Shown here one piece after another: positions 12,308-38,062 of a stretch of 64,000 nucleotides of DNA. The DNA lies in contig CAZYLT010000011.1 of the NCBI GenBank assembly GCA_964648855.1, positions 2,158 through 66,157 on the forward strand. The letters are read 5' to 3'. Within the stretch, counting starts at the first letter, position 1; each line of letters begins with the position of its first letter. The notes beneath the pieces were generated by a model, which did no database searches, had not been told where the DNA came from, and was given only the letters and a program-made list of their open reading frames with translations. A program made the translations under genes and the position numbers. The stretch comes from an uncultured archaeon. GTDB lineage: Archaea; Asgardarchaeota; Thorarchaeia; Thorarchaeales; Thorarchaeaceae.

Positions 12308-14989
12308 CTACTCCTTCTGCATTTCCTGTCGCACATGCTGTAGTGCTGACTTGTAGATTTGTTTCGCCAACTGAAACTCTAAGCCACAGTTCTTGGCGAA
12401 TCTGTTTCGAGCCAGCCCCTTCTTGCTTGCGTCAACATCTTTTTTCAGAATGTCTGAAATGCTTCGGTATCCGTTACCATAAAGCGTTCTCATTTCTTGT
12501 TGGGAGAGATGTCGCTTCTCATTTTCACTCAACCGAATCACAAGATTTGGAAGAGTTGTTGCTGCCATATCTGATCGTAAGCCATATTCCATCTGCAGTG
12601 AGAGAGTTCTGAATCTCTCCATCAACGGCATATTTCCAAGCTTCTGTTGGTAAGACTGGAAGTCTGCTGAGAGCCCTTTGCATATGTCGGCTAGCGCCAT
12701 CAGGTCTCCCTCTTCAATGTCGCTTCCTCCTGATGGTCTATCACTTGAGGATTCCTCAGTCGCCACATGCAAGGCTTCGTCCAATATCTCGGGAACGCTA
12801 TTCTCCTGAGTCCATCCCCTCAGAACTGCTTGTTTAATGAGCTGTCGTCTACGTACAAGCTCTTTATACCAATTTTCTACTTCATCCAAACCTGTGCTCT
12901 TCAGTTCAATCTGGGTGGGGAGATATGTTCGCGGTCTGGCTGCTTGAGGAAGTGGGAGCTCCAATAGAATATCGAGAAACACTTCGGTGTCATTATCAGC
13001 GCCCAATGCAGTGATCTCATCTTCATGCTCAGCATAGTGGATCGAATCGAGTCCTGATTCTGCAGCAGCACGCATATTTTTCGAGAGCTTGAATCCCGAC
13101 TTTGTTCTTATGAAGCAGTTTCTATTTTCAAACCATTCGACCAAGCTATCGAACATGTTCGAAATGTAGGTCTCATAATCCTCGTCCTTTGACGCCCTGT
13201 AGCTTCTTTGTAGAATTGAAAGAACTCCAGTCTTGATTTTGGACAACATGAATGTCCGTTGCTTCAATGTCTGGCGGATGATTAGATTAGCCAGGATAAC
13301 TGGATAGATGGGCCCTGGTTCAAGGGGTCTGAGTGGTTCATGGAGTAATGTTTTTGCTAACTGGTCTGCTGTATTGAATTGACGGGTGGGCGATTCAAAA
13401 ACAAGGTAGACACTGCCACCCCGCTGTGCCAAGTAGTATTCACCTATTCGACCTGCAATCTGCAAGTATCTTGACCTTGTCACCAAGAATCCCATGGACC
13501 GGTCAAAAAGGATTACTACAGCATCAAAGGGGAAACTGGTACCAGCAGTAATTCCTGTCGTTGAAACGACAAACCTAACATTCTTCTTTCTAATCTCATC
13601 TTCCAATCGCCCTCGAACCCCAGAGTCAAGTCCTGCGTGATGAAATGCGATGCCAGAATGCAGAACATCTCTCAAACGCTCTGCAAGCGGTAATCCTTTG
13701 GATTCATCAATGATACGATTTGTCACTGATTCATCAAGAGAACGTGCCCATCTTCTAGTTGCAGCTCTCGCTATCTGTTCTGCTTTGTATCGATACCCGA
13801 CCACTACAAGTATTGATTTATTCTGTACGTCATCAATGTGGTCAATCACGGCTTCAAGAGGATATTCTCTTCGTATTTCGTCGACGTGGGTTCCATCACG
13901 GCTTTGAATCTTGACGGTATCATCAATTTTCTCTACAATGAACTCATCGGGACATAGTCTAACGCTTGGACGAAATACCCGGGCGTCCAGCCACTCCGCC
14001 ATTGAGTCTGTATCACCAAATCTTGACGAGAGGGTGACGATCTGACTTGATTGTTTGAGGAGTGTGACTAACATATCCACCTTGACGCTTCTATCGCTAC
14101 CTAAATTGGATGGTCTTAATGTATCAACACCTGAATCCAGTTGAGTAATCTCATCCGCAATAACGAGTTCAATACCCTCTGTCCAAGTGGCTTTCTGCAA
14201 ATGCGATGATAGAATAGACTCATAGATTCCTACTATAAGGTCGGCTTGCTCTAATTCCCCATCTGTCACTGTTGTTGTGCCATCTAGTCGAGCTACCGAA
14301 TATCCAAGTTCTTCAAAGAGATCTCCATACTCATTGAGCACTTGCCTATTTATCGAAATATATGGGGTGACATAGAGCGCACGCGAACCACGTTGAAGCC
14401 TGGTCAACATGATAATCATGGCCAAAAATGTCTTGCCAGAACCTGGTGGCATCTGGATAATCAAATTCTCATCAATATCCCCAATCTCAAGGAGAAATTT
14501 CTGTTGGGCGGGTAGGGGGCGAATGAAATTCTTGTGTTTCAGAAGCACTTTGGCGGCTCTCTGAAACTCTGTATTTGCAGCAGTCGGTCCAAGCATGCTT
14601 CTCAAGGCAGACAGAACGAGTCTTCCCTCATGCGTTATCATGAAACTTCGCTGTTTTTTGCCCCTTGCGCCAAGAGCCTGAACAAACCCGGCTTTTACCA
14701 GCTTGTTCATTGTTTCGTAGAGGGTCCCTCCAGAAGCGAACCGTTTCCTTCGTTTCTCGTATTCGGCTTCTTTTTGTGATCGAGAGTCATGTTTGCTAGG
14801 TGGGGGTTTTGGATACCCCATTAGTTCTAGAATACCCTCTACAATTTCATCCCACCCTACTTCCGGAACCATTGCGCCCTCAGTGGGACTAAGCACCTCA
14901 AGAATCTCGATGGAGTAGCGATTTCCGAGTACTTTCAAGTGCCCTCTTAAATCACTGTAGACGTAATCATCTGCTTTTGGCTCGGGCAT
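12308..14989 (-). CDS. Ski2/Hel308-like SF2 helicase with N-terminal winged-helix extension
   Basis: Walker A MPPGSGKT, DExx box VIADEITQLD, motif VI IAFHHAGLDSGVR (Hel308-type HHAGL); N-terminal ~150 aa look like a wHTH (GKKQRSFMITHEGRLVL). Confidence 0.65.
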   Translation of the reverse strand: MPEPKADDYVYSDLRGHLKVLGNRYSIEILEVLSPTEGAMVPEVGWDEIVEGILELMGYPKPPPSKHDSRSQKEAEYEKRRKRFASGGTLYETMNKLVKAGFVQALGARGKKQRSFMITHEGRLVLSALRSMLGPTAANTEFQRAAKVLLKHKNFIRPLPAQQKFLLEIGDIDENLIIQMPPGSGKTFLAMIIMLTRLQRGSRALYVTPYISINRQVLNEYGDLFEELGYSVARLDGTTTVTDGELEQADLIVGIYESILSSHLQKATWTEGIELVIADEITQLDSGVDTLRPSNLGSDRSVKVDMLVTLLKQSSQIVTLSSRFGDTDSMAEWLDARVFRPSVRLCPDEFIVEKIDDTVKIQSRDGTHVDEIRREYPLEAVIDHIDDVQNKSILVVVGYRYKAEQIARAATRRWARSLDESVTNRIIDESKGLPLAERLRDVLHSGIAFHHAGLDSGVRGRLEDEIRKKNVRFVVSTTGITAGTSFPFDAVVILFDRSMGFLVTRSRYLQIAGRIGEYYLAQRGGSVYLVFESPTRQFNTADQLAKTLLHEPLRPLEPGPIYPVILANLIIRQTLKQRTFMLSKIKTGVLSILQRSYRASKDEDYETYISNMFDSLVEWFENRNCFIRTKSGFKLSKNMRAAAESGLDSIHYAEHEDEITALGADNDTEVFLDILLELPLPQAARPRTYLPTQIELKSTGLDEVENWYKELVRRRQLIKQAVLRGWTQENSVPEILDEALHVATEESSSDRPSGGSDIEEGDLMALADICKGLSADFQSYQQKLGNMPLMERFRTLSLQMEYGLRSDMAATTLPNLVIRLSENEKRHLSQQEMRTLYGNGYRSISDILKKDVDASKKGLARNRFAKNCGLEFQLAKQIYKSALQHVRQEMQKE

Positions 14990-35830: not shown

Positions 35831-38062
35831 TTAACTGAAATGGCTAAGTAGACGCATAAACCCTTCCCGTAATGATTGGATCTCTTGCCTTAATTGCTTT
35901 CTCTCTCTGCTCGTCAGCCCAAGAATAATGGAACCGACATAATGAAGTTCCTCAATGACATTCTCCAATATCCCTGGAGAGTCATCCTCACAATATGGGA
36001 TTCCTTTGTCATGATTCTCTTCTGACGAGGCAATCACTCTTCTTACCAAGTCCCTTGGTGCCCCAGTCCGGTCTATAACAACCCGTTCTAAAAGGTCGTT
36101 CAAATTCACTCGCTTCTTTGAGATAGCTTTAGTGACCAGTTTGGCATCTTCGACTGGTACTCCCAGAATCGCAACACTCTCTCCAAGGCTAGTGCATTGG
36201 AGACCGTCTTTTGCCTTTCTGATGAAACTTTCTGATTCAAGATTATCTATAACTTCCAGCCCAGTCAGCGCTTGTTGTACCACGGCAGTGGCATACGTCG
36301 ATGCCTCCGTCTTTAAGGCAGTCCTAATGAACTTCACAATATGCTTGCAGAGCCTATGTCTTTTCGCACCTTGATATTTCCAGGCTTCACATGTACATGA
36401 AATGCCCTCTCCCGCTCTGAGCAAGACATGATGCCATAAATCTCTTGATTGACTATGCACTAGCCCTTCAATTTTGTCTGGGCGTGTACTGACAATCCTA
36501 ACGCTCTTTTCTGGAATCTTCTCTGCCCTCTCACGAGCAGCCTTTGTTGATCTTAGAGCAAGAAGGGTGTCAACTGATGCCTCGGGCTCAATATACCCTT
36601 TCCCAGTCAACTTCGCAGCCGCCCTGTTACTATGTGCCCAGAATGTTCGGTCCAGAATACCAAAGGGATCCGTTTTGTCTCCGAAGGCCGCACATAACTC
36701 TGCAAGAATGAGATCCTGCATGTGTTCGCTCTCATCAAGCATGCTATCCACTTCTCCTGCTCTTGGAGCGATATTACCCACTGGATCTGTGATGAAGTAC
36801 CTATTAATCACACGTGTCTTTTCTGATTCCGAGTCGAGTACAATAATTCCAAATGCTTCAATATCCAGACCCCGTCTTCCTGCAGATCGGAGTATTTTGT
36901 CCAGTTGCCATTCAGATAGCATTGTGAGACCCTGCGTGACCGGTTGTGTCTCCTTTTCCTGCATGAAAACACCGAGTAGAAACACCACTGTGGCTCTCAA
37001 TCCGCTAGCTATGGCGAATTTTGATGGCATAACCAAGACAGGTAGAAGCCTATCCTCCCACGCCTTAGATATGGCACGTCTCTGTGTTCTAGAAACACCC
37101 TGATGAAAGAATGCTATGCCCCTAGAAATTGTCCGTCCAAGACTCTTGGTCATCTTACAATCCTTGTAATGACCAGTGACCTCTTCAGCCAGTTCCCTGA
37201 GTTCATCTCTATGTCCCAGTGTCAAAGGCAGCTCGAGCCTTACACCGCCGTTCTTCCCGACCCCAGCCAAGCCTAAAGCCAAGTGGTTTGCCATATCCCG
37301 ATTCGGAGTCATAATCATGATTTGTCCCCCGCGTCGATGGACGAACTGAGTCAAATCCTTGAGTGACTCGTTCATATTCTCGAATACCTTTACGCTGAAT
37401 ATTCTCTTGACATCCGCCTTTTCATCTACAATCGGAGTTGCATCAAGCCAGGTAACGAGTTCGACCAAATCCTCTACTGGGGGACAAATGGCTATATGTT
37501 GTAGGTCCCGCCCTCTTCGCATAATTGTCACGAGTATTGTTTCAAGGCGGGCACCTAAGTCCGGTTCGCCTATGAGGTCAAGACGCTCCGTGAGCACACA
37601 CTGGATATCATTAAGAATCTCTGGATGAGTGCGAAGAGCAATTCCTAGGGCACTATATGTTGCTACGATAACTCTACCAGTAATCTCCTTAGTATCTAGG
37701 GCGTCCCTTCTTCTCGAAATCATTTTGGCTTCTATGCCCAACCGCGTACAGTGCCTACTCACCGATCTGAATCTTTTCTCAGCCTGATGCGGGTTGGGAG
37801 ACAAGACAATTGCTTTTGTTTTGAAGTTCGATGTCACTCTATGGAGAAGTCCTACCTCGGCTATCTTATATGCCTCATCATAGTCATAGGTAACAAGAAT
37901 TTGACTGTCCCCAATTGAAAGCCCCTCCCGAACAGAGGCTCTTTGGAAATTAGTGAGACTAGCCCAACCTTCTCGCCTCAATATCTCTAGTAGACGAGGC
38001 GAAATCCGAGCTAACTCGAGTTCCCGCAGACTACTCAAATCATATCCACTCCCTGACTTCAA
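35831..38062 (-). CDS. Ski2/Hel308-like pseudo-helicase with C-terminal SWIM zinc finger
   Basis: Hel308-like layout, but Walker A replaced (GDSQILVTYDYDEAYK vs APTGSGKT) and DExH replaced (LTERLDLIGEPDLGARLE vs DEIHLLGDRDRGPVLE); motif VI-like GIAFFHQGVSRTQRRAI retained; C-terminal CTCEAWKYQGAKRHRLCKH = CxC...CxH SWIM pattern. Confidence 0.5.
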   Translation of the reverse strand: MKSGSGYDLSSLRELELARISPRLLEILRREGWASLTNFQRASVREGLSIGDSQILVTYDYDEAYKIAEVGLLHRVTSNFKTKAIVLSPNPHQAEKRFRSVSRHCTRLGIEAKMISRRRDALDTKEITGRVIVATYSALGIALRTHPEILNDIQCVLTERLDLIGEPDLGARLETILVTIMRRGRDLQHIAICPPVEDLVELVTWLDATPIVDEKADVKRIFSVKVFENMNESLKDLTQFVHRRGGQIMIMTPNRDMANHLALGLAGVGKNGGVRLELPLTLGHRDELRELAEEVTGHYKDCKMTKSLGRTISRGIAFFHQGVSRTQRRAISKAWEDRLLPVLVMPSKFAIASGLRATVVFLLGVFMQEKETQPVTQGLTMLSEWQLDKILRSAGRRGLDIEAFGIIVLDSESEKTRVINRYFITDPVGNIAPRAGEVDSMLDESEHMQDLILAELCAAFGDKTDPFGILDRTFWAHSNRAAAKLTGKGYIEPEASVDTLLALRSTKAARERAEKIPEKSVRIVSTRPDKIEGLVHSQSRDLWHHVLLRAGEGISCTCEAWKYQGAKRHRLCKHIVKFIRTALKTEASTYATAVVQQALTGLEVIDNLESESFIRKAKDGLQCTSLGESVAILGVPVEDAKLVTKAISKKRVNLNDLLERVVIDRTGAPRDLVRRVIASSEENHDKGIPYCEDDSPGILENVIEELHYVGSIILGLTSRERKQLRQEIQSLREGFMRLLSHFS

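What the first reader, a model, noticed from the sequence alone, without database searches (positions are those of the whole stretch)
35831..38062. Hel308/Ski2-like paralogue with degenerate ATPase motifs fused to a SWIM zinc finger
The 743-aa protein follows the Ski2/Hel308 domain order but lacks a P-loop: GDSQILVTYDYDEAYK sits where APTGSGKT is expected. The DExH box is replaced by TERLD. A motif VI-like element, GIAFFHQGVSRTQRRAI, remains. The C-terminal region carries CTCEAWKYQGAKRHRLCKH, which is a CxC...CxH SWIM-type finger. An ATPase-dead, helicase-shaped protein with a nucleic-acid/protein-interaction zinc finger is likely a regulatory or scaffolding paralogue of the intact Hel308-like helicase at 12308..14989.
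Basis: seen in the sequence. Interest (0 to 1): 0.55.

Follow-up and report, generated by a model that had tools for sequence, protein, structure and literature searches.

The report
Dead Hel308-like helicase with SWIM finger
This Thorarchaeota (Asgard archaea) gene encodes a helicase-shaped protein that has lost its ATP-burning site yet is strictly conserved, so it probably works as a passive DNA/RNA- or protein-binding adaptor through an unusually conserved zinc finger.

Summary
ORF 35831..38062 (-) is a Hel308/Hjm homologue (PDB 2va8 E 5.5e-19; AlphaFold model matches full-length Hjm/Hel308, TM 0.65-0.71). YDYDEAY replaces the P-loop GSGKT, TERL replaces DExH, CPP replaces SAT, and the first motif VI arginine is lost. 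A CxCx13CxH SWIM finger is present.

All 120 retrieved orthologues, nearly all from Thorarchaeota, carry the same replacements. dN/dS is 0.075 against the closest orthologue, so this is a maintained pseudo-helicase, not a decaying gene.

The interpretation needs three corrections:
- The SWIM finger was not fused onto a dead helicase. It is a ~110-aa insertion inside the winged-helix domain, shared with catalytically intact Hel308-like helicases across Asgard lineages, including cultured Promethearchaeum syntrophicum.
- The relevant active paralogue is not the gene at 12308..14989 (BLASTP E 1.2). It is a ~730-aa SWIM-bearing helicase elsewhere in Thorarchaeota genomes, found in the same MAG, in a cluster with XPD-, RadB- and FEN1-like genes.
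- GIAFFHQGV is motif IVa, not motif VI.

Constraint has moved from the ATPase core to the SWIM module. The function is inferred, not shown: ATP-independent binding or adaptor activity. I found no published description. I rate it a new variant of a known kind, of moderate interest.

The parts
35831..38062 (-). Maximal ORF of the pseudo-helicase (743 aa, TTG start; stop codon at 35831-35833). The probable real CDS is 35831..38038 (735 aa).
   Evidence: Orthologues P0001 and P0003 are 735 aa.
37433..37960 (-). RecA1-like domain (aa 35-210). It keeps the Q-motif F39-Q40, motif Ia proline (P89-N-P-H-Q-A-E) and motif Ib T135.
   Evidence: phmmer alignment to 2va8; AlphaFold secondary structure; joint conservation with intact relatives.
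37868..37891 (-). Degenerate motif I: T58-Y-D-Y-D-E-A-Y65 in place of the P-loop xPxGSGKT. D60 and E63 are invariant in the 50-sequence alignment, and A64 replaces the Walker lysine.
37577..37591 (-). Degenerate motif II: T158-E-R-L-D162 in place of D-E-x-H-x. R160 and D162 are invariant in the 50-sequence alignment.
37475..37489 (-). Degenerate motif III: I192-C-P-P-V196 in place of L-S-A-T-x.
36779..37420 (-). RecA2-like domain (aa 215-428). The motif V threonines are lost (MPSKFAIASGLRA in place of TTTLAAGVNLPA).
37094..37120 (-). Motif IVa, G315-I-A-F-F-H-Q-G-V323 (Hel308/HELQ AF/YHHAGL). G315, H320 and G322 are invariant; F318 is nearly invariant.
   Evidence: motif definition from PMC10484726.
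36863..36895 (-). Motif VI remnant, aa 390-400 (KILRSAGRRGLD in place of QxLGRAGRPGxD). The glutamine and the first arginine are lost. R396 is nearly invariant and D400 is invariant.
36602..36745 (-). N-terminal part of the winged-helix domain (aa 440-487).
   Evidence: Alignment to canonical Hel308-like proteins; AlphaFold helices 445-484.
36227..36601 (-). Insertion of about 110-125 aa inside the winged-helix domain (aa 488-612). It consists of two helices, a four-stranded beta-sheet, the zinc knuckle and following helices. Canonical Hel308-like proteins have only about 17 residues here.
   Evidence: alignment; AlphaFold, pLDDT 82 for both models.
36335..36430 (-). SWIM zinc-finger core (aa 545-576) with ligands C556, C558, C572 and H574. 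The surrounding aa 520-582 is the most conserved stretch of the protein (40% of columns at least 98% identical).
   Evidence: Pfam PF04434.
35834..36226 (-). C-terminal part of the winged helix plus a shortened domain 4 (aa 613-743). There is no domain 5 (HhH).
   Evidence: Full-length Foldseek matches to Hjm/Hel308. Pfam Helicase_dom4_arc and HHH_5 are present in relative P0139 but not here.
35915..35977 (-). Helix aligned with the ratchet helix (aa 696-716). P696, G697, E700, N701 and Y708 are invariant. Y708 aligns with the conserved tryptophan of the intact relatives compared.

Best explanation
The gene encodes a catalytically dead but selectively maintained paralogue (a pseudo-helicase) of the SWIM-bearing Hel308-like helicases of Asgard archaea.

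Shown:
- It keeps the RecA1-RecA2-winged helix-domain 4 architecture of Hel308.
- It has lost the residues needed to bind and hydrolyse ATP.
- The replacement residues are themselves conserved across Thorarchaeota.
- Sequence constraint has moved from the ATPase core to the SWIM module inserted in the winged-helix domain.

Inferred:
- It no longer translocates.
- It still binds single-stranded or branched nucleic acid in the Hel308 channel. The elements that argue for this are the motif Ia proline, motif Ib threonine, the motif IVa Phe/His that pack on the ratchet, and an invariant Tyr in place of the ratchet Trp.
- It uses the basic, nearly invariant SWIM module (WKYQG..HRLCKH) as a docking surface for DNA or a partner protein.
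- It would then act as an ATP-independent clamp, annealing factor or adaptor in DNA recombination/repair, the pathway suggested by the gene cluster of its active paralogue.

Speculative: the acidic ex-P-loop (D60, D62, E63), the new R160 and the retained R396/R397 may fill the former nucleotide pocket and fix the two RecA domains in one conformation.
For: Homology and fold:
- PDB sequence hits to Hel308/Hjm.
- AlphaFold model with pLDDT 82 and pTM 0.81. Its best Foldseek matches are full-length Hjm 2zj5 and Hel308 2va8 (E 2e-24, TM 0.65/0.71).

Loss of catalytic motifs.

Maintenance:
- 120 of 120 orthologues (48-91% identity, median 735 aa) have no Walker A or DExH at the expected positions.
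- All 120 have the D-[YFH]-x-E-[AS]-[YHF] replacement and an intact CxC..CxH.
- dN/dS is 0.075 against the 88%-identical orthologue.

Constraint shift:
- In the dead family, columns at least 98% identical make up 40% of the beta+SWIM module but only 16% of RecA1 and 14% of RecA2.
- In the active Thorarchaeota paralogue at similar divergence, the figures are 25%, 31% and 22%.

Retained nucleic-acid-path and ratchet-contact residues.

Literature context:
- Hel308 has a DNA-annealing activity separable from unwinding, controlled by motif IVa (PMC10484726; PMC13623763).
- The active paralogue sits in a conserved cluster with Rad3/XPD-like, RadB-like and FEN1-like genes.
- In the yeast Shu complex, the SWIM domain of Shu2 forms the interface with the Rad51 paralogue Shu1 (PMC5727457).
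Against: - No biochemical or expression data exist for this protein.
- Nucleic-acid binding is inferred from a handful of retained residues. The motif V threonines that contact nucleic acid in intact relatives are lost.
- Domain 5 is absent and domain 4 is shortened.
- The gene itself lies in a housekeeping neighbourhood, not with repair genes, so the link to recombination rests only on its paralogue.
- The Q-motif glutamine and one motif VI arginine are retained, so nucleotide binding without hydrolysis is not excluded.
- I could not inspect model coordinates, so the 'self-filled pocket' idea is untested.
Confidence: 0.55

Rival explanations
1. It is a trans-acting regulatory partner of the active SWIM-bearing helicase. 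It would resemble the inactive C-terminal cassette of Brr2, which stimulates and scaffolds the active N-terminal cassette, by forming a heterodimer with its active paralogue or competing with it for the same partners.
For: - Both paralogues occur in one MAG.
- They share the SWIM-in-winged-helix architecture.
- Foldseek also matches Brr2 cassettes.
- This overlaps with the best explanation rather than excluding it.
Against: - The two genes are on different contigs and in unrelated neighbourhoods.
- They share only 23% identity.
- The SWIM loops differ strongly (WKYQGxxxHRL versus GxPxxxxGxL).
- From my own knowledge, the Brr2 C-terminal cassette keeps an ATP-binding P-loop; this protein does not.
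- No interaction was tested.
Confidence: 0.2
2. It is an RNA- or ribosome-related scaffold. It would be a Ski2/Mtr4-like adaptor in which the winged-helix insertion plays the role of the arch domain, acting in rRNA or tRNA processing rather than DNA repair.
For: - Synteny is conserved across Thorarchaeota at about 50% protein identity with Nop2/RsmB-F, Nip7-like PUA, L40e, L38e, a beta-CASP nuclease, Alba and TruD.
- In Mtr4 and Ski2 the arch is also inserted in the winged-helix domain (figure legend of PMC10946056).
- Mtr4 and Ski2 are among the structural matches.
Against: - The neighbours are on mixed strands and include unrelated metabolic genes (sucCD, PAC2, PALP). The synteny may be simple chromosomal conservation.
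- The best sequence and structure matches are the DNA helicases Hel308/Hjm, not Mtr4 or Ski2.
- Relatives in other lineages have different neighbours.
- Equivalence of the insertion site with the arch was not tested.
Confidence: 0.15
3. It is a cryptic nucleotide-binding protein or non-canonical ATPase that uses the retained Q-motif glutamine, E159 and R396/R397 with other residues.
For: F39-Q40 (Q-motif) are invariant. An acidic residue persists at the Walker B glutamate position. One motif VI arginine is nearly invariant.
Against: The Walker lysine and threonine, the Walker B aspartate, the SAT motif, the motif V threonines and the first motif VI arginine are all replaced, in every orthologue. 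The ex-P-loop is acidic, which should repel phosphates. This last point is inference.
Confidence: 0.07
4. It is a decaying relic (pseudogene in progress) with no function.
For: Catalytic motifs are lost. Most public annotations call it a hypothetical protein.
Against: - Intact ORFs of about 735 aa occur in 120 cluster representatives at 48-91% identity.
- The replacement residues are invariant.
- dN/dS is 0.075.
- Genomic position is conserved.
Confidence: 0.01

Closest known systems
Archaeal Hel308/Hjm (Ski2-like SF2 DNA helicase; PDB 2va8, 2zj2/2zj5, 2p6r)
   Same: It has the best sequence and fold matches. It shares the RecA1-RecA2-winged helix-domain 4 order, motif IVa Phe/His, the Q-motif Gln, and an aromatic residue aligned with the ratchet tryptophan of intact relatives.
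   Different: - No Walker A, DExH or SAT, and a damaged motif VI.
- An insertion of about 110 aa with a SWIM finger in the winged helix.
- Shortened domain 4 and no HhH domain 5.
- Scores 92-101 bits against NCBIfam equivalog cutoffs of 887-1216.
SWIM-bearing Hel308-like helicases of Asgard archaea. They are unnamed and annotated 'DEAD/DEAH box helicase' or 'Ski2-type helicase'. Examples are QEE16306.1 of Promethearchaeum syntrophicum (P0161), the Baldrarchaeia protein P0139 and the Thorarchaeota protein P0484.
   Same: The SWIM insertion is at the same place in the winged-helix domain. The overall length and architecture match the short forms, which also lack domain 5.
   Different: - Those proteins keep SPSGSGKT, DE[IV][HQ], SAT and GRAGRPG.
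- Their SWIM loops are variable in length and sequence.
- Here the catalytic motifs are gone and the SWIM module is the most conserved part.
Partly degenerate sister proteins: P0127 (Promethearchaeota/Hodarchaeota labels), P0131 (Ranarchaeia), P0133 and P0143 (Odinarchaeia), P0145 (unknown taxon)
   Same: - They are the highest-scoring non-family hits to the family profile (310-180 bits).
- P0127, P0133, P0143 and P0145 share the SWIM signature C.CE.W[KR]F[KR].
- They lie in stand-alone housekeeping or metabolic neighbourhoods.
   Different: P0127, P0131, P0133 and P0143 keep GK[TS] but have eroded motifs II, III and VI (DETY, DDAQ, EECD, DEFQ; AGKPK, AGNPK). P0145 has lost everything independently. 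Identity to this protein is only 17-25%.
Brr2 C-terminal helicase cassette (eukaryotic spliceosome)
   Same: It is a Ski2-like helicase unit that does not unwind and serves as a regulatory and protein-interaction platform. This is from my own knowledge. Brr2 appears among the fold matches.
   Different: - The Brr2 cassette is fused in cis to an active cassette.
- It retains nucleotide binding and carries a Sec63 unit (ratchet-HLH-FN3).
- Here the gene is separate, the P-loop is absent, and there is no Sec63 Pfam hit and no HLH or FN3.
Utp25/Def pseudo-helicase (eukaryotic SSU processome)
   Same: It is an SF2 helicase-like protein described in the literature as a pseudo-helicase of the SSU processome (PMC9539457, title and abstract as listed).
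   Different: Utp25 resembles DEAD-box helicases and is eukaryotic. There is no SWIM and no homology beyond the RecA fold. I read only the listing, not the paper body.
Shu2/SWS1 SWIM proteins (regulators of eukaryotic homologous recombination)
   Same: Both have the CxCxnCxH SWIM finger. In Shu2 the SWIM domain forms the interface to a Rad51 paralogue (PMC5727457). The active Thorarchaeota paralogue is clustered with RadB-like genes.
   Different: There is no detectable sequence or fold match between the insertion and any PDB entry. Shu2 is a small stand-alone protein with n = 59; here n = 13 and the finger is embedded in a helicase scaffold.

Membership tests
Hel308/Hjm (Ski2-like SF2 helicase) | Two RecA-like domains followed by a winged helix and a helical ratchet domain | tested here: met
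   The AlphaFold model (pLDDT 82, pTM 0.81) matches full-length Hjm 2zj5 and Hel308 2va8 (E 2e-24, TMq 0.65, TMt 0.71). The alignment shows domain 4 is shortened.
Hel308/Hjm (Ski2-like SF2 helicase) | Walker A / motif I (GxGKT) | tested here: not met
   YDYDEAY lies at the aligned position. None of 120 orthologues has GK[TS] there.
Hel308/Hjm (Ski2-like SF2 helicase) | Motif II (DExH) and motif III (SAT) | tested here: not met
   T-E-R-L and C-P-P lie at the aligned positions. None of 120 orthologues has DEx[HQ].
Hel308/Hjm (Ski2-like SF2 helicase) | Motif VI (QxxGRAGR) | tested here: not met
   The aligned sequence is K-I-L-R-S-A-G-R-R-G. The Gln and first Arg are lost, and the second Arg is retained.
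Hel308/Hjm (Ski2-like SF2 helicase) | Motif IVa (A-F/Y-H-H-A-G-L) | tested here: met
   The sequence is A317-F-F-H-Q-G-V323. F318 is nearly invariant; H320 and G322 are invariant. The first His and the Ala are replaced.
Hel308/Hjm (Ski2-like SF2 helicase) | C-terminal helix-hairpin-helix domain 5 | tested here: not met
   The protein ends after the helices aligned with domain 4 and has no HHH Pfam hit. Relative P0139 has HHH_5.
Hel308/Hjm (Ski2-like SF2 helicase) | Score above the curated NCBIfam equivalog cutoff | tested here: not met
   It scores 101.4, 94.6 and 92.1 bits against cutoffs of 887, 1200 and 1216.
Hel308/Hjm (Ski2-like SF2 helicase) | ATP-dependent 3'-5' DNA unwinding | not testable with these tools
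   This needs a biochemical assay. The sequence predicts it is absent.
SWIM zinc finger (Pfam PF04434) | CxCxnCxH signature with n about 6-16, after beta-strands and before a helix | tested here: met
   The signature is C556-x-C558-x13-C572-x-H574. Pfam gives 19.6 bits, equal to the gathering score. AlphaFold places CxC at the end of strand 4 and CxH at a helix N-terminus. All 120 orthologues keep it. The typical n is taken from PMC5727457.
SWIM zinc finger (Pfam PF04434) | Zinc binding | not testable with these tools
   This needs metal analysis of purified protein.
Asgard SWIM-in-winged-helix Hel308-like helicases (undescribed group defined here) | SWIM-containing insertion between the second and third helix of the winged-helix domain of a Hel308-like protein | tested here: met
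   The alignment with intact SWIM-bearing members and with canonical Hel308-like proteins lacking the insertion shows this. The family profile retrieves 42 SWIM-bearing proteins among the top 150 cluster representatives.
Pseudo-enzyme (maintained catalytically dead paralogue) | Loss of catalytic residues combined with purifying selection and an active paralogue in the same genome | tested here: met
   Loss of catalytic residues. Purifying selection: dN/dS 0.075. Active paralogue P0484 and dead orthologue P0110 are both in GCA_008080745.1.
Brr2-type helicase (Sec63 unit) | Sec63 homology unit (ratchet-HLH-FN3) and tandem cassettes | tested here: not met
   There is no Sec63 Pfam hit. The protein is a single cassette of 743 aa with no HLH or FN3.

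The most novel reading that the evidence does not exclude
The SWIM module inserted in the winged-helix domain may be a signature of Asgard Hel308-like helicases. Every such protein that carried a credible taxon label came from Asgard lineages, although canonical Hel308 proteins of other archaea were not taxonomically checked. The module would be a docking arm for RadA/Rad51-paralogue proteins, analogous in position to the Mtr4/Ski2 arch and in partner choice to Shu2/SWS1. On this reading Thorarchaeota have turned one copy into a dedicated ATP-independent recombination mediator or annealase. That would be a prokaryotic precedent for the eukaryotic pairing of an active and a dead Ski2-like unit, and for the HELQ-RAD51-paralogue and SWS1-RAD51-paralogue connections.
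Probability: 0.12. Interest if true: 0.75.

Novelty: new variant of a known kind. Interest (0 to 1): 0.5.

Why it matters
Hel308/HELQ-type helicases sit at the junction of replication-fork repair and control of recombination. The eukaryotic versions are thought to descend from Asgard archaea.

A copy that is conserved across Thorarchaeota, has lost ATP hydrolysis, and keeps the scaffold plus a hyper-conserved zinc finger is a natural separation-of-function variant. It could show what the Hel308 body does without its motor, for example binding, annealing or partner recruitment.

It also drew attention to the SWIM insertion shared by the intact Asgard helicases. I found no description of that insertion in the searchable literature. 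It is directly testable in the cultured Promethearchaeum syntrophicum protein.

If the protein is only a lineage-specific scaffold, the result is a tidy example of pseudo-enzyme evolution. In that case it mainly corrects annotations, which currently read 'hypothetical protein' or 'DEAD/DEAH box helicase'.

Tried and rejected
- **Decaying pseudogene.** Rejected. dN/dS is 0.075 and the replacement residues are invariant in 120 orthologues.
- **Close paralogue of the helicase at 12308..14989.** Rejected. BLASTP E is 1.2, although that protein is Ski2/Hel308-like in its core.
- **Genome-collection scan with a Loki-type long-form alignment, to ask whether Thorarchaeota have an active copy.**
  - It returned only near-identical long forms.
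The scan was therefore uninformative.
  - The question was answered instead by searching with the Hermodarchaeia protein P0144 and by looking up contigs.
- **Fold of the isolated insertion (aa 488-614).** The model is good (pLDDT 82). Foldseek against PDB gave no match better than E 0.56. A profile search of PDB sequences gave nothing relevant.
- **Defence-system membership.** PADLOC gave only a marginal generic helicase hit for this protein. For the paralogue's cluster it matched only the two helicases, with generic helicase models (HamB/BrxH-type for the SWIM helicase, type IV DinG for the XPD-like one).
- **Literature.** Searches for SWIM with Hel308, Ski2, Asgard, pseudohelicase or inactivated helicase found no description. 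The survey of archaeal Ski2-like helicases does not mention it, and its supplements are not held.
- **Neighbour-joining tree.** The Thorarchaeota family sits on a very long branch, so its placement is unreliable. I rely on profile scores and the shared SWIM signature instead.


Full report
**1. What is there**

The ORF at 35831..38062 (minus strand, 743 aa, TTG start) exists as described. Its closest orthologues are 735 aa and begin at the equivalent of codon 9. That codon is also a TTG (38038) and is preceded by GGGAGTGG, so the real protein is probably 735 aa.

Database matches:
- Pfam finds only a SWIM finger, at aa 545-576 with 19.6 bits, exactly the gathering score.
- NCBIfam Hel308 equivalog models match aa 18-485 at E 1e-27 to 1e-29. 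The scores are about a tenth of their cutoffs.
- Against PDB sequences the best hits are S. solfataricus Hel308 2va8 (E 5.5e-19), P. furiosus Hjm 2zj2 and A. fulgidus Hel308 2p6r.

**2. Motif status**

This comes from the alignment to 2va8 and from alignments to catalytically intact relatives:

| Motif | Intact relatives | This protein |
|---|---|---|
| I (Walker A) | xPxGSGKT | T58-Y-D-Y-D-E-A-Y65 |
| II | D-E-x-H | T158-E-R-L161 |
| III | S-A-T | C193-P-P |
| V | T-x-T threonines | replaced |
| VI | Q-x-L-G-R-A-G-R-P-G | K-I-L-R-S-A-G-R-R-G |

Retained elements are the Q-motif F39-Q40, the motif Ia proline, the motif Ib T135, GQ of motif IV, and the R-L-E after motif II.

Motif IVa is also retained (A317-F-F-H-Q-G-V). 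Motif IVa (AF/YHHAGL) is the Hel308/HELQ element that packs against the ratchet domain and controls unwinding versus annealing (PMC10484726).

**3. Fold**

An AlphaFold2 model built on 50 family members has pLDDT 82 and pTM 0.81. Foldseek against the PDB puts full-length Hjm (2zj5) and Hel308 (2va8, 2p6r) first, at E about 2e-24 with TM 0.65 (query) and 0.71 (target). The Pol theta helicase domain, Mtr4 and Brr2 follow.

**4. It is a maintained gene**

- A search of 5.8 billion proteins returned 207 hits. The 120 best are 654-783 aa (median 735) and 48-91% identical, and nearly all named ones are Thorarchaeota MAGs.
- None has a Walker A or DExH at the expected place.
- All have D-[YFH]-x-E-[AS]-[YHF] instead of the P-loop, and an intact CxC..CxH.
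- D60, E63, R160 and D162 are invariant in the 50-sequence alignment, and A64 is nearly so.
- dN/dS against the 88%-identical orthologue is 0.075, with dS 0.88.
- The chromosomal position is conserved at about 50% protein identity. The order is Nop2/RsmB-F, Nip7-like PUA, PAC2, (PRC barrel), this gene, sucC, sucD, L40e, L38e, beta-CASP nuclease, Alba, an unknown gene, TruD.

**5. The SWIM finger is ancestral, not a fusion onto a dead helicase**

A profile of the family was searched against 1.84 billion cluster representatives.
- It found one full-length representative of the family itself, then a graded series of full-length relatives.
- 42 of the top 150 carry CxC..CxH at about aa 515-590.
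- Most of these have intact SPSGSGKT, DE[IV]H, SAT and GRAGRPG.

Named members come from several Asgard lineages:
- Promethearchaeota/Lokiarchaeota, including Promethearchaeum syntrophicum QEE16306.1
- Baldrarchaeia, Hermodarchaeia and Jordarchaeia/Freyarchaeota
- Helarchaeota, Njordarchaeota and Odinarchaeia
- The only exception was one partial 2.9-kb contig labelled Patescibacteria.

In the Baldrarchaeia protein, Pfam places DEAD, Helicase_C, SWIM (501-537), archaeal helicase domain 4 (647-711) and HHH_5 in that order.

An alignment with canonical Hel308-like proteins shows that the SWIM module is an insertion of about 110 aa inside the winged-helix domain. It lies between the helix ending in 'TFW/TFY' and the helix 'L..L...G[FL]I'. 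Canonical proteins have about 17 residues there.

The same alignment shows that the short forms, including this protein, have a reduced domain 4 and no HhH domain 5.

AlphaFold predicts two helices, a four-stranded sheet, CxC at the end of strand 4 and CxH at a helix N-terminus. The isolated module has no significant PDB match.

**6. The real paralogue**

- Thorarchaeota also encode an intact ~730-aa SWIM-bearing helicase, with SPTGSGKT, VIDE[IV]Q, QMLGRAGRPG and CSCG..C.H.
- One of these (P0484) and a pseudo-helicase orthologue (P0110) are on two contigs of the same assembly, GCA_008080745.1.
- BLASTP of the window protein against P0484 gives 23% identity over 523 aa, running through the SWIM finger (E 1e-14).
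- Against the 893-aa helicase at 12308..14989 there is no detectable similarity (E 1.2). That protein is a Ski2/Hel308-like helicase in its core but has its own odd motifs (DEIT, SSR, GRIGE).
- The active paralogue lies in a same-strand cluster conserved in three assemblies. The cluster contains a Rad3/XPD-like helicase, two or three RadB/Rad51-like proteins, a FEN1/XPG-like nuclease and several unknowns.

**7. Graded decay in the nearest relatives**

The best non-family hits to the profile are P0127 (310 bits), P0131 (Ranarchaeia), and P0133 and P0143 (Odinarchaeia).
- They keep GK[TS] but have eroded motif II (DETY, DDAQ, EECD, DEFQ), motif III (SSN, SGK, SAN, SDI) and motif VI (AGKPK, AGNPK, AGNYK).
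- P0127, P0133 and P0143 share the SWIM signature C.CE.W[KR]F[KR] with the Thorarchaeota family.
- P0145 has lost all motifs independently.
- These genes also stand alone in metabolic neighbourhoods.

This suggests an old duplication, followed by relaxed constraint on ATP hydrolysis and complete loss in Thorarchaeota. My neighbour-joining tree is dominated by the long Thorarchaeota branch and cannot settle the topology.

**8. Where the constraint now lies**

Share of columns at least 98% identical, by region:

| Region | Dead family (121 sequences) | Active Thorarchaeota paralogue (41 sequences, 50-60% identity) |
|---|---|---|
| Beta-sheet + SWIM module | 40% | 25% |
| RecA1 | 16% | 31% |
| RecA2 | 14% | 22% |
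| Domain 4 region | 7-12% | 10% (C-terminal region) |

Selection has shifted from the motor to the SWIM module. Its loop here is basic and aromatic (W561-K-Y-Q-G-A-K-R-H-R-L).

**9. Mechanism**

Shown: the fold, the loss of catalytic residues, purifying selection, paralogy, the insertion site and the shift in constraint.

Inferred:
- The protein no longer hydrolyses ATP or translocates.
- It may still bind nucleic acid through the Hel308 channel. It retains motif Ia and Ib elements, the motif IVa Phe/His, and an invariant Y708 aligned with the conserved tryptophan of the intact relatives compared.
- It presents the SWIM module to DNA or to a partner.
- Hel308 and HELQ have an annealing activity separable from unwinding. 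SWIM domains can form interfaces with Rad51 paralogues. The active paralogue is clustered with RadB-like genes.
- On that basis I favour an ATP-independent binding, annealing or adaptor role in recombination/repair, possibly alongside or in competition with the active paralogue.

A ribosome- or RNA-related scaffold role, suggested by the synteny, is the main alternative. A cryptic nucleotide-binding role is unlikely but not excluded, because the Q-motif glutamine and one motif VI arginine persist.

**10. Comparison and novelty**

It works like other pseudo-helicases, such as the Brr2 C-terminal cassette and Utp25. It fails the defining catalytic features of Hel308, so I do not file it as a Hel308 helicase. 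It belongs to a SWIM-in-winged-helix group of Asgard Hel308-like proteins.

I found no description of that group in the searchable literature. Subscription-only papers and arCOG/asCOG annotation tables were not searchable. I rate it a new variant of a known kind.

**11. Limits**

- No coordinates were available to test the pocket-filling idea.
- Co-occurrence of the two paralogues was shown for one MAG only.
- Taxon labels of some MAG batches are inconsistent.
- Equivalence of the insertion site with the Mtr4/Ski2 arch rests on both being 'in the winged-helix domain', not on a superposition.

Noticed in passing
L089:1-13841 (GCA_048881725.1), L084:830-13110 (GCA_008080745.1), L091:1210-7402 (GCA_004525575.1): The intact SWIM-bearing Hel308-like helicase of Thorarchaeota lies in a conserved same-strand cluster. 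In L089, the most complete copy, the order is: small Rad51-like protein, two unknowns, Rad3/XPD-like helicase, two small unknowns, an unknown of about 780 aa, the helicase, an unknown of about 520-560 aa, a RadB/KaiC-like ATPase, an unknown, a RadB-like protein, and a FEN1/XPG-like nuclease. It looks like a dedicated recombination/repair module. PADLOC recognises no defence system in it.
   Followed up: partly
P0161 (QEE16306.1, Promethearchaeum syntrophicum), P0139, P0144, P0137 and others; L004-L083: Intact Hel308-like helicases from many Asgard lineages carry a SWIM finger inserted in the winged-helix domain, with loop lengths from about 8 to 28 residues. The Lokiarchaeota-type long forms and the Baldrarchaeia protein keep the HhH domain 5; the short forms lack it. 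I found no published description.
   Followed up: partly
window:12308-14989 (-): The 893-aa 'intact' helicase is Ski2/Hel308-like in its RecA core (PDB 9b15 and 2p6r at about 1e-30). It has an N-terminal extension of about 150 aa, ADEITQ instead of DExH, SSR instead of SAT, and QIAGRIGE instead of QxxGRAGR, so it is also atypical. It scores far below the Hel308 equivalog cutoffs.
   Followed up: partly
P0145 (593 aa, taxon unknown): This is a second, apparently independent relative that has lost the Walker A (TPMSCWEL), DExH (IDYLH) and motif VI (LGINNNS), but keeps a SWIM signature close to the Thorarchaeota one (CTCEYWRFRGRFKNRLCKH).
   Followed up: no
window:33731-35821 (-); L087:3269-5218: The pseudo-helicase is followed on the same strand by succinyl-CoA synthetase (sucC, sucD) in every Thorarchaeota locus examined. 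The gap is about 70-85 bp if sucC starts at its conserved ATG. The partly degenerate Odinarchaeota relative P0143 is followed by aconitase. Adjacency to TCA-cycle genes in two lineages may be coincidence.
   Followed up: no
window:38271-38513 (+): A PRC-barrel-like ORF of only 80 aa lies divergently upstream of the gene. In more distant Thorarchaeota (L001, L002) the gene at this position encodes 221-224 aa. In the closest relative (L088) no gene is called there. It is possibly a shortened or decaying gene.
   Followed up: no
Taxon labels from these records should not be trusted for distribution claims.
   Followed up: partly
window:44285-50458 (+): A 2057-aa ORF lies here. By synteny with L002 and L088 (HD, CYTH and PALP neighbours) it corresponds to a giant protein of 2045-2282 aa containing a transglutaminase core and Big/MG2 domains. 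I did not analyse it in the window.
   Followed up: no
window:33259-33717 (-): The 152-aa GTG ORF between sucD and L38e is probably spurious. Other Thorarchaeota loci have a 51-52-aa L40e gene in this interval, which is too short for the ORF listing.
   Followed up: no
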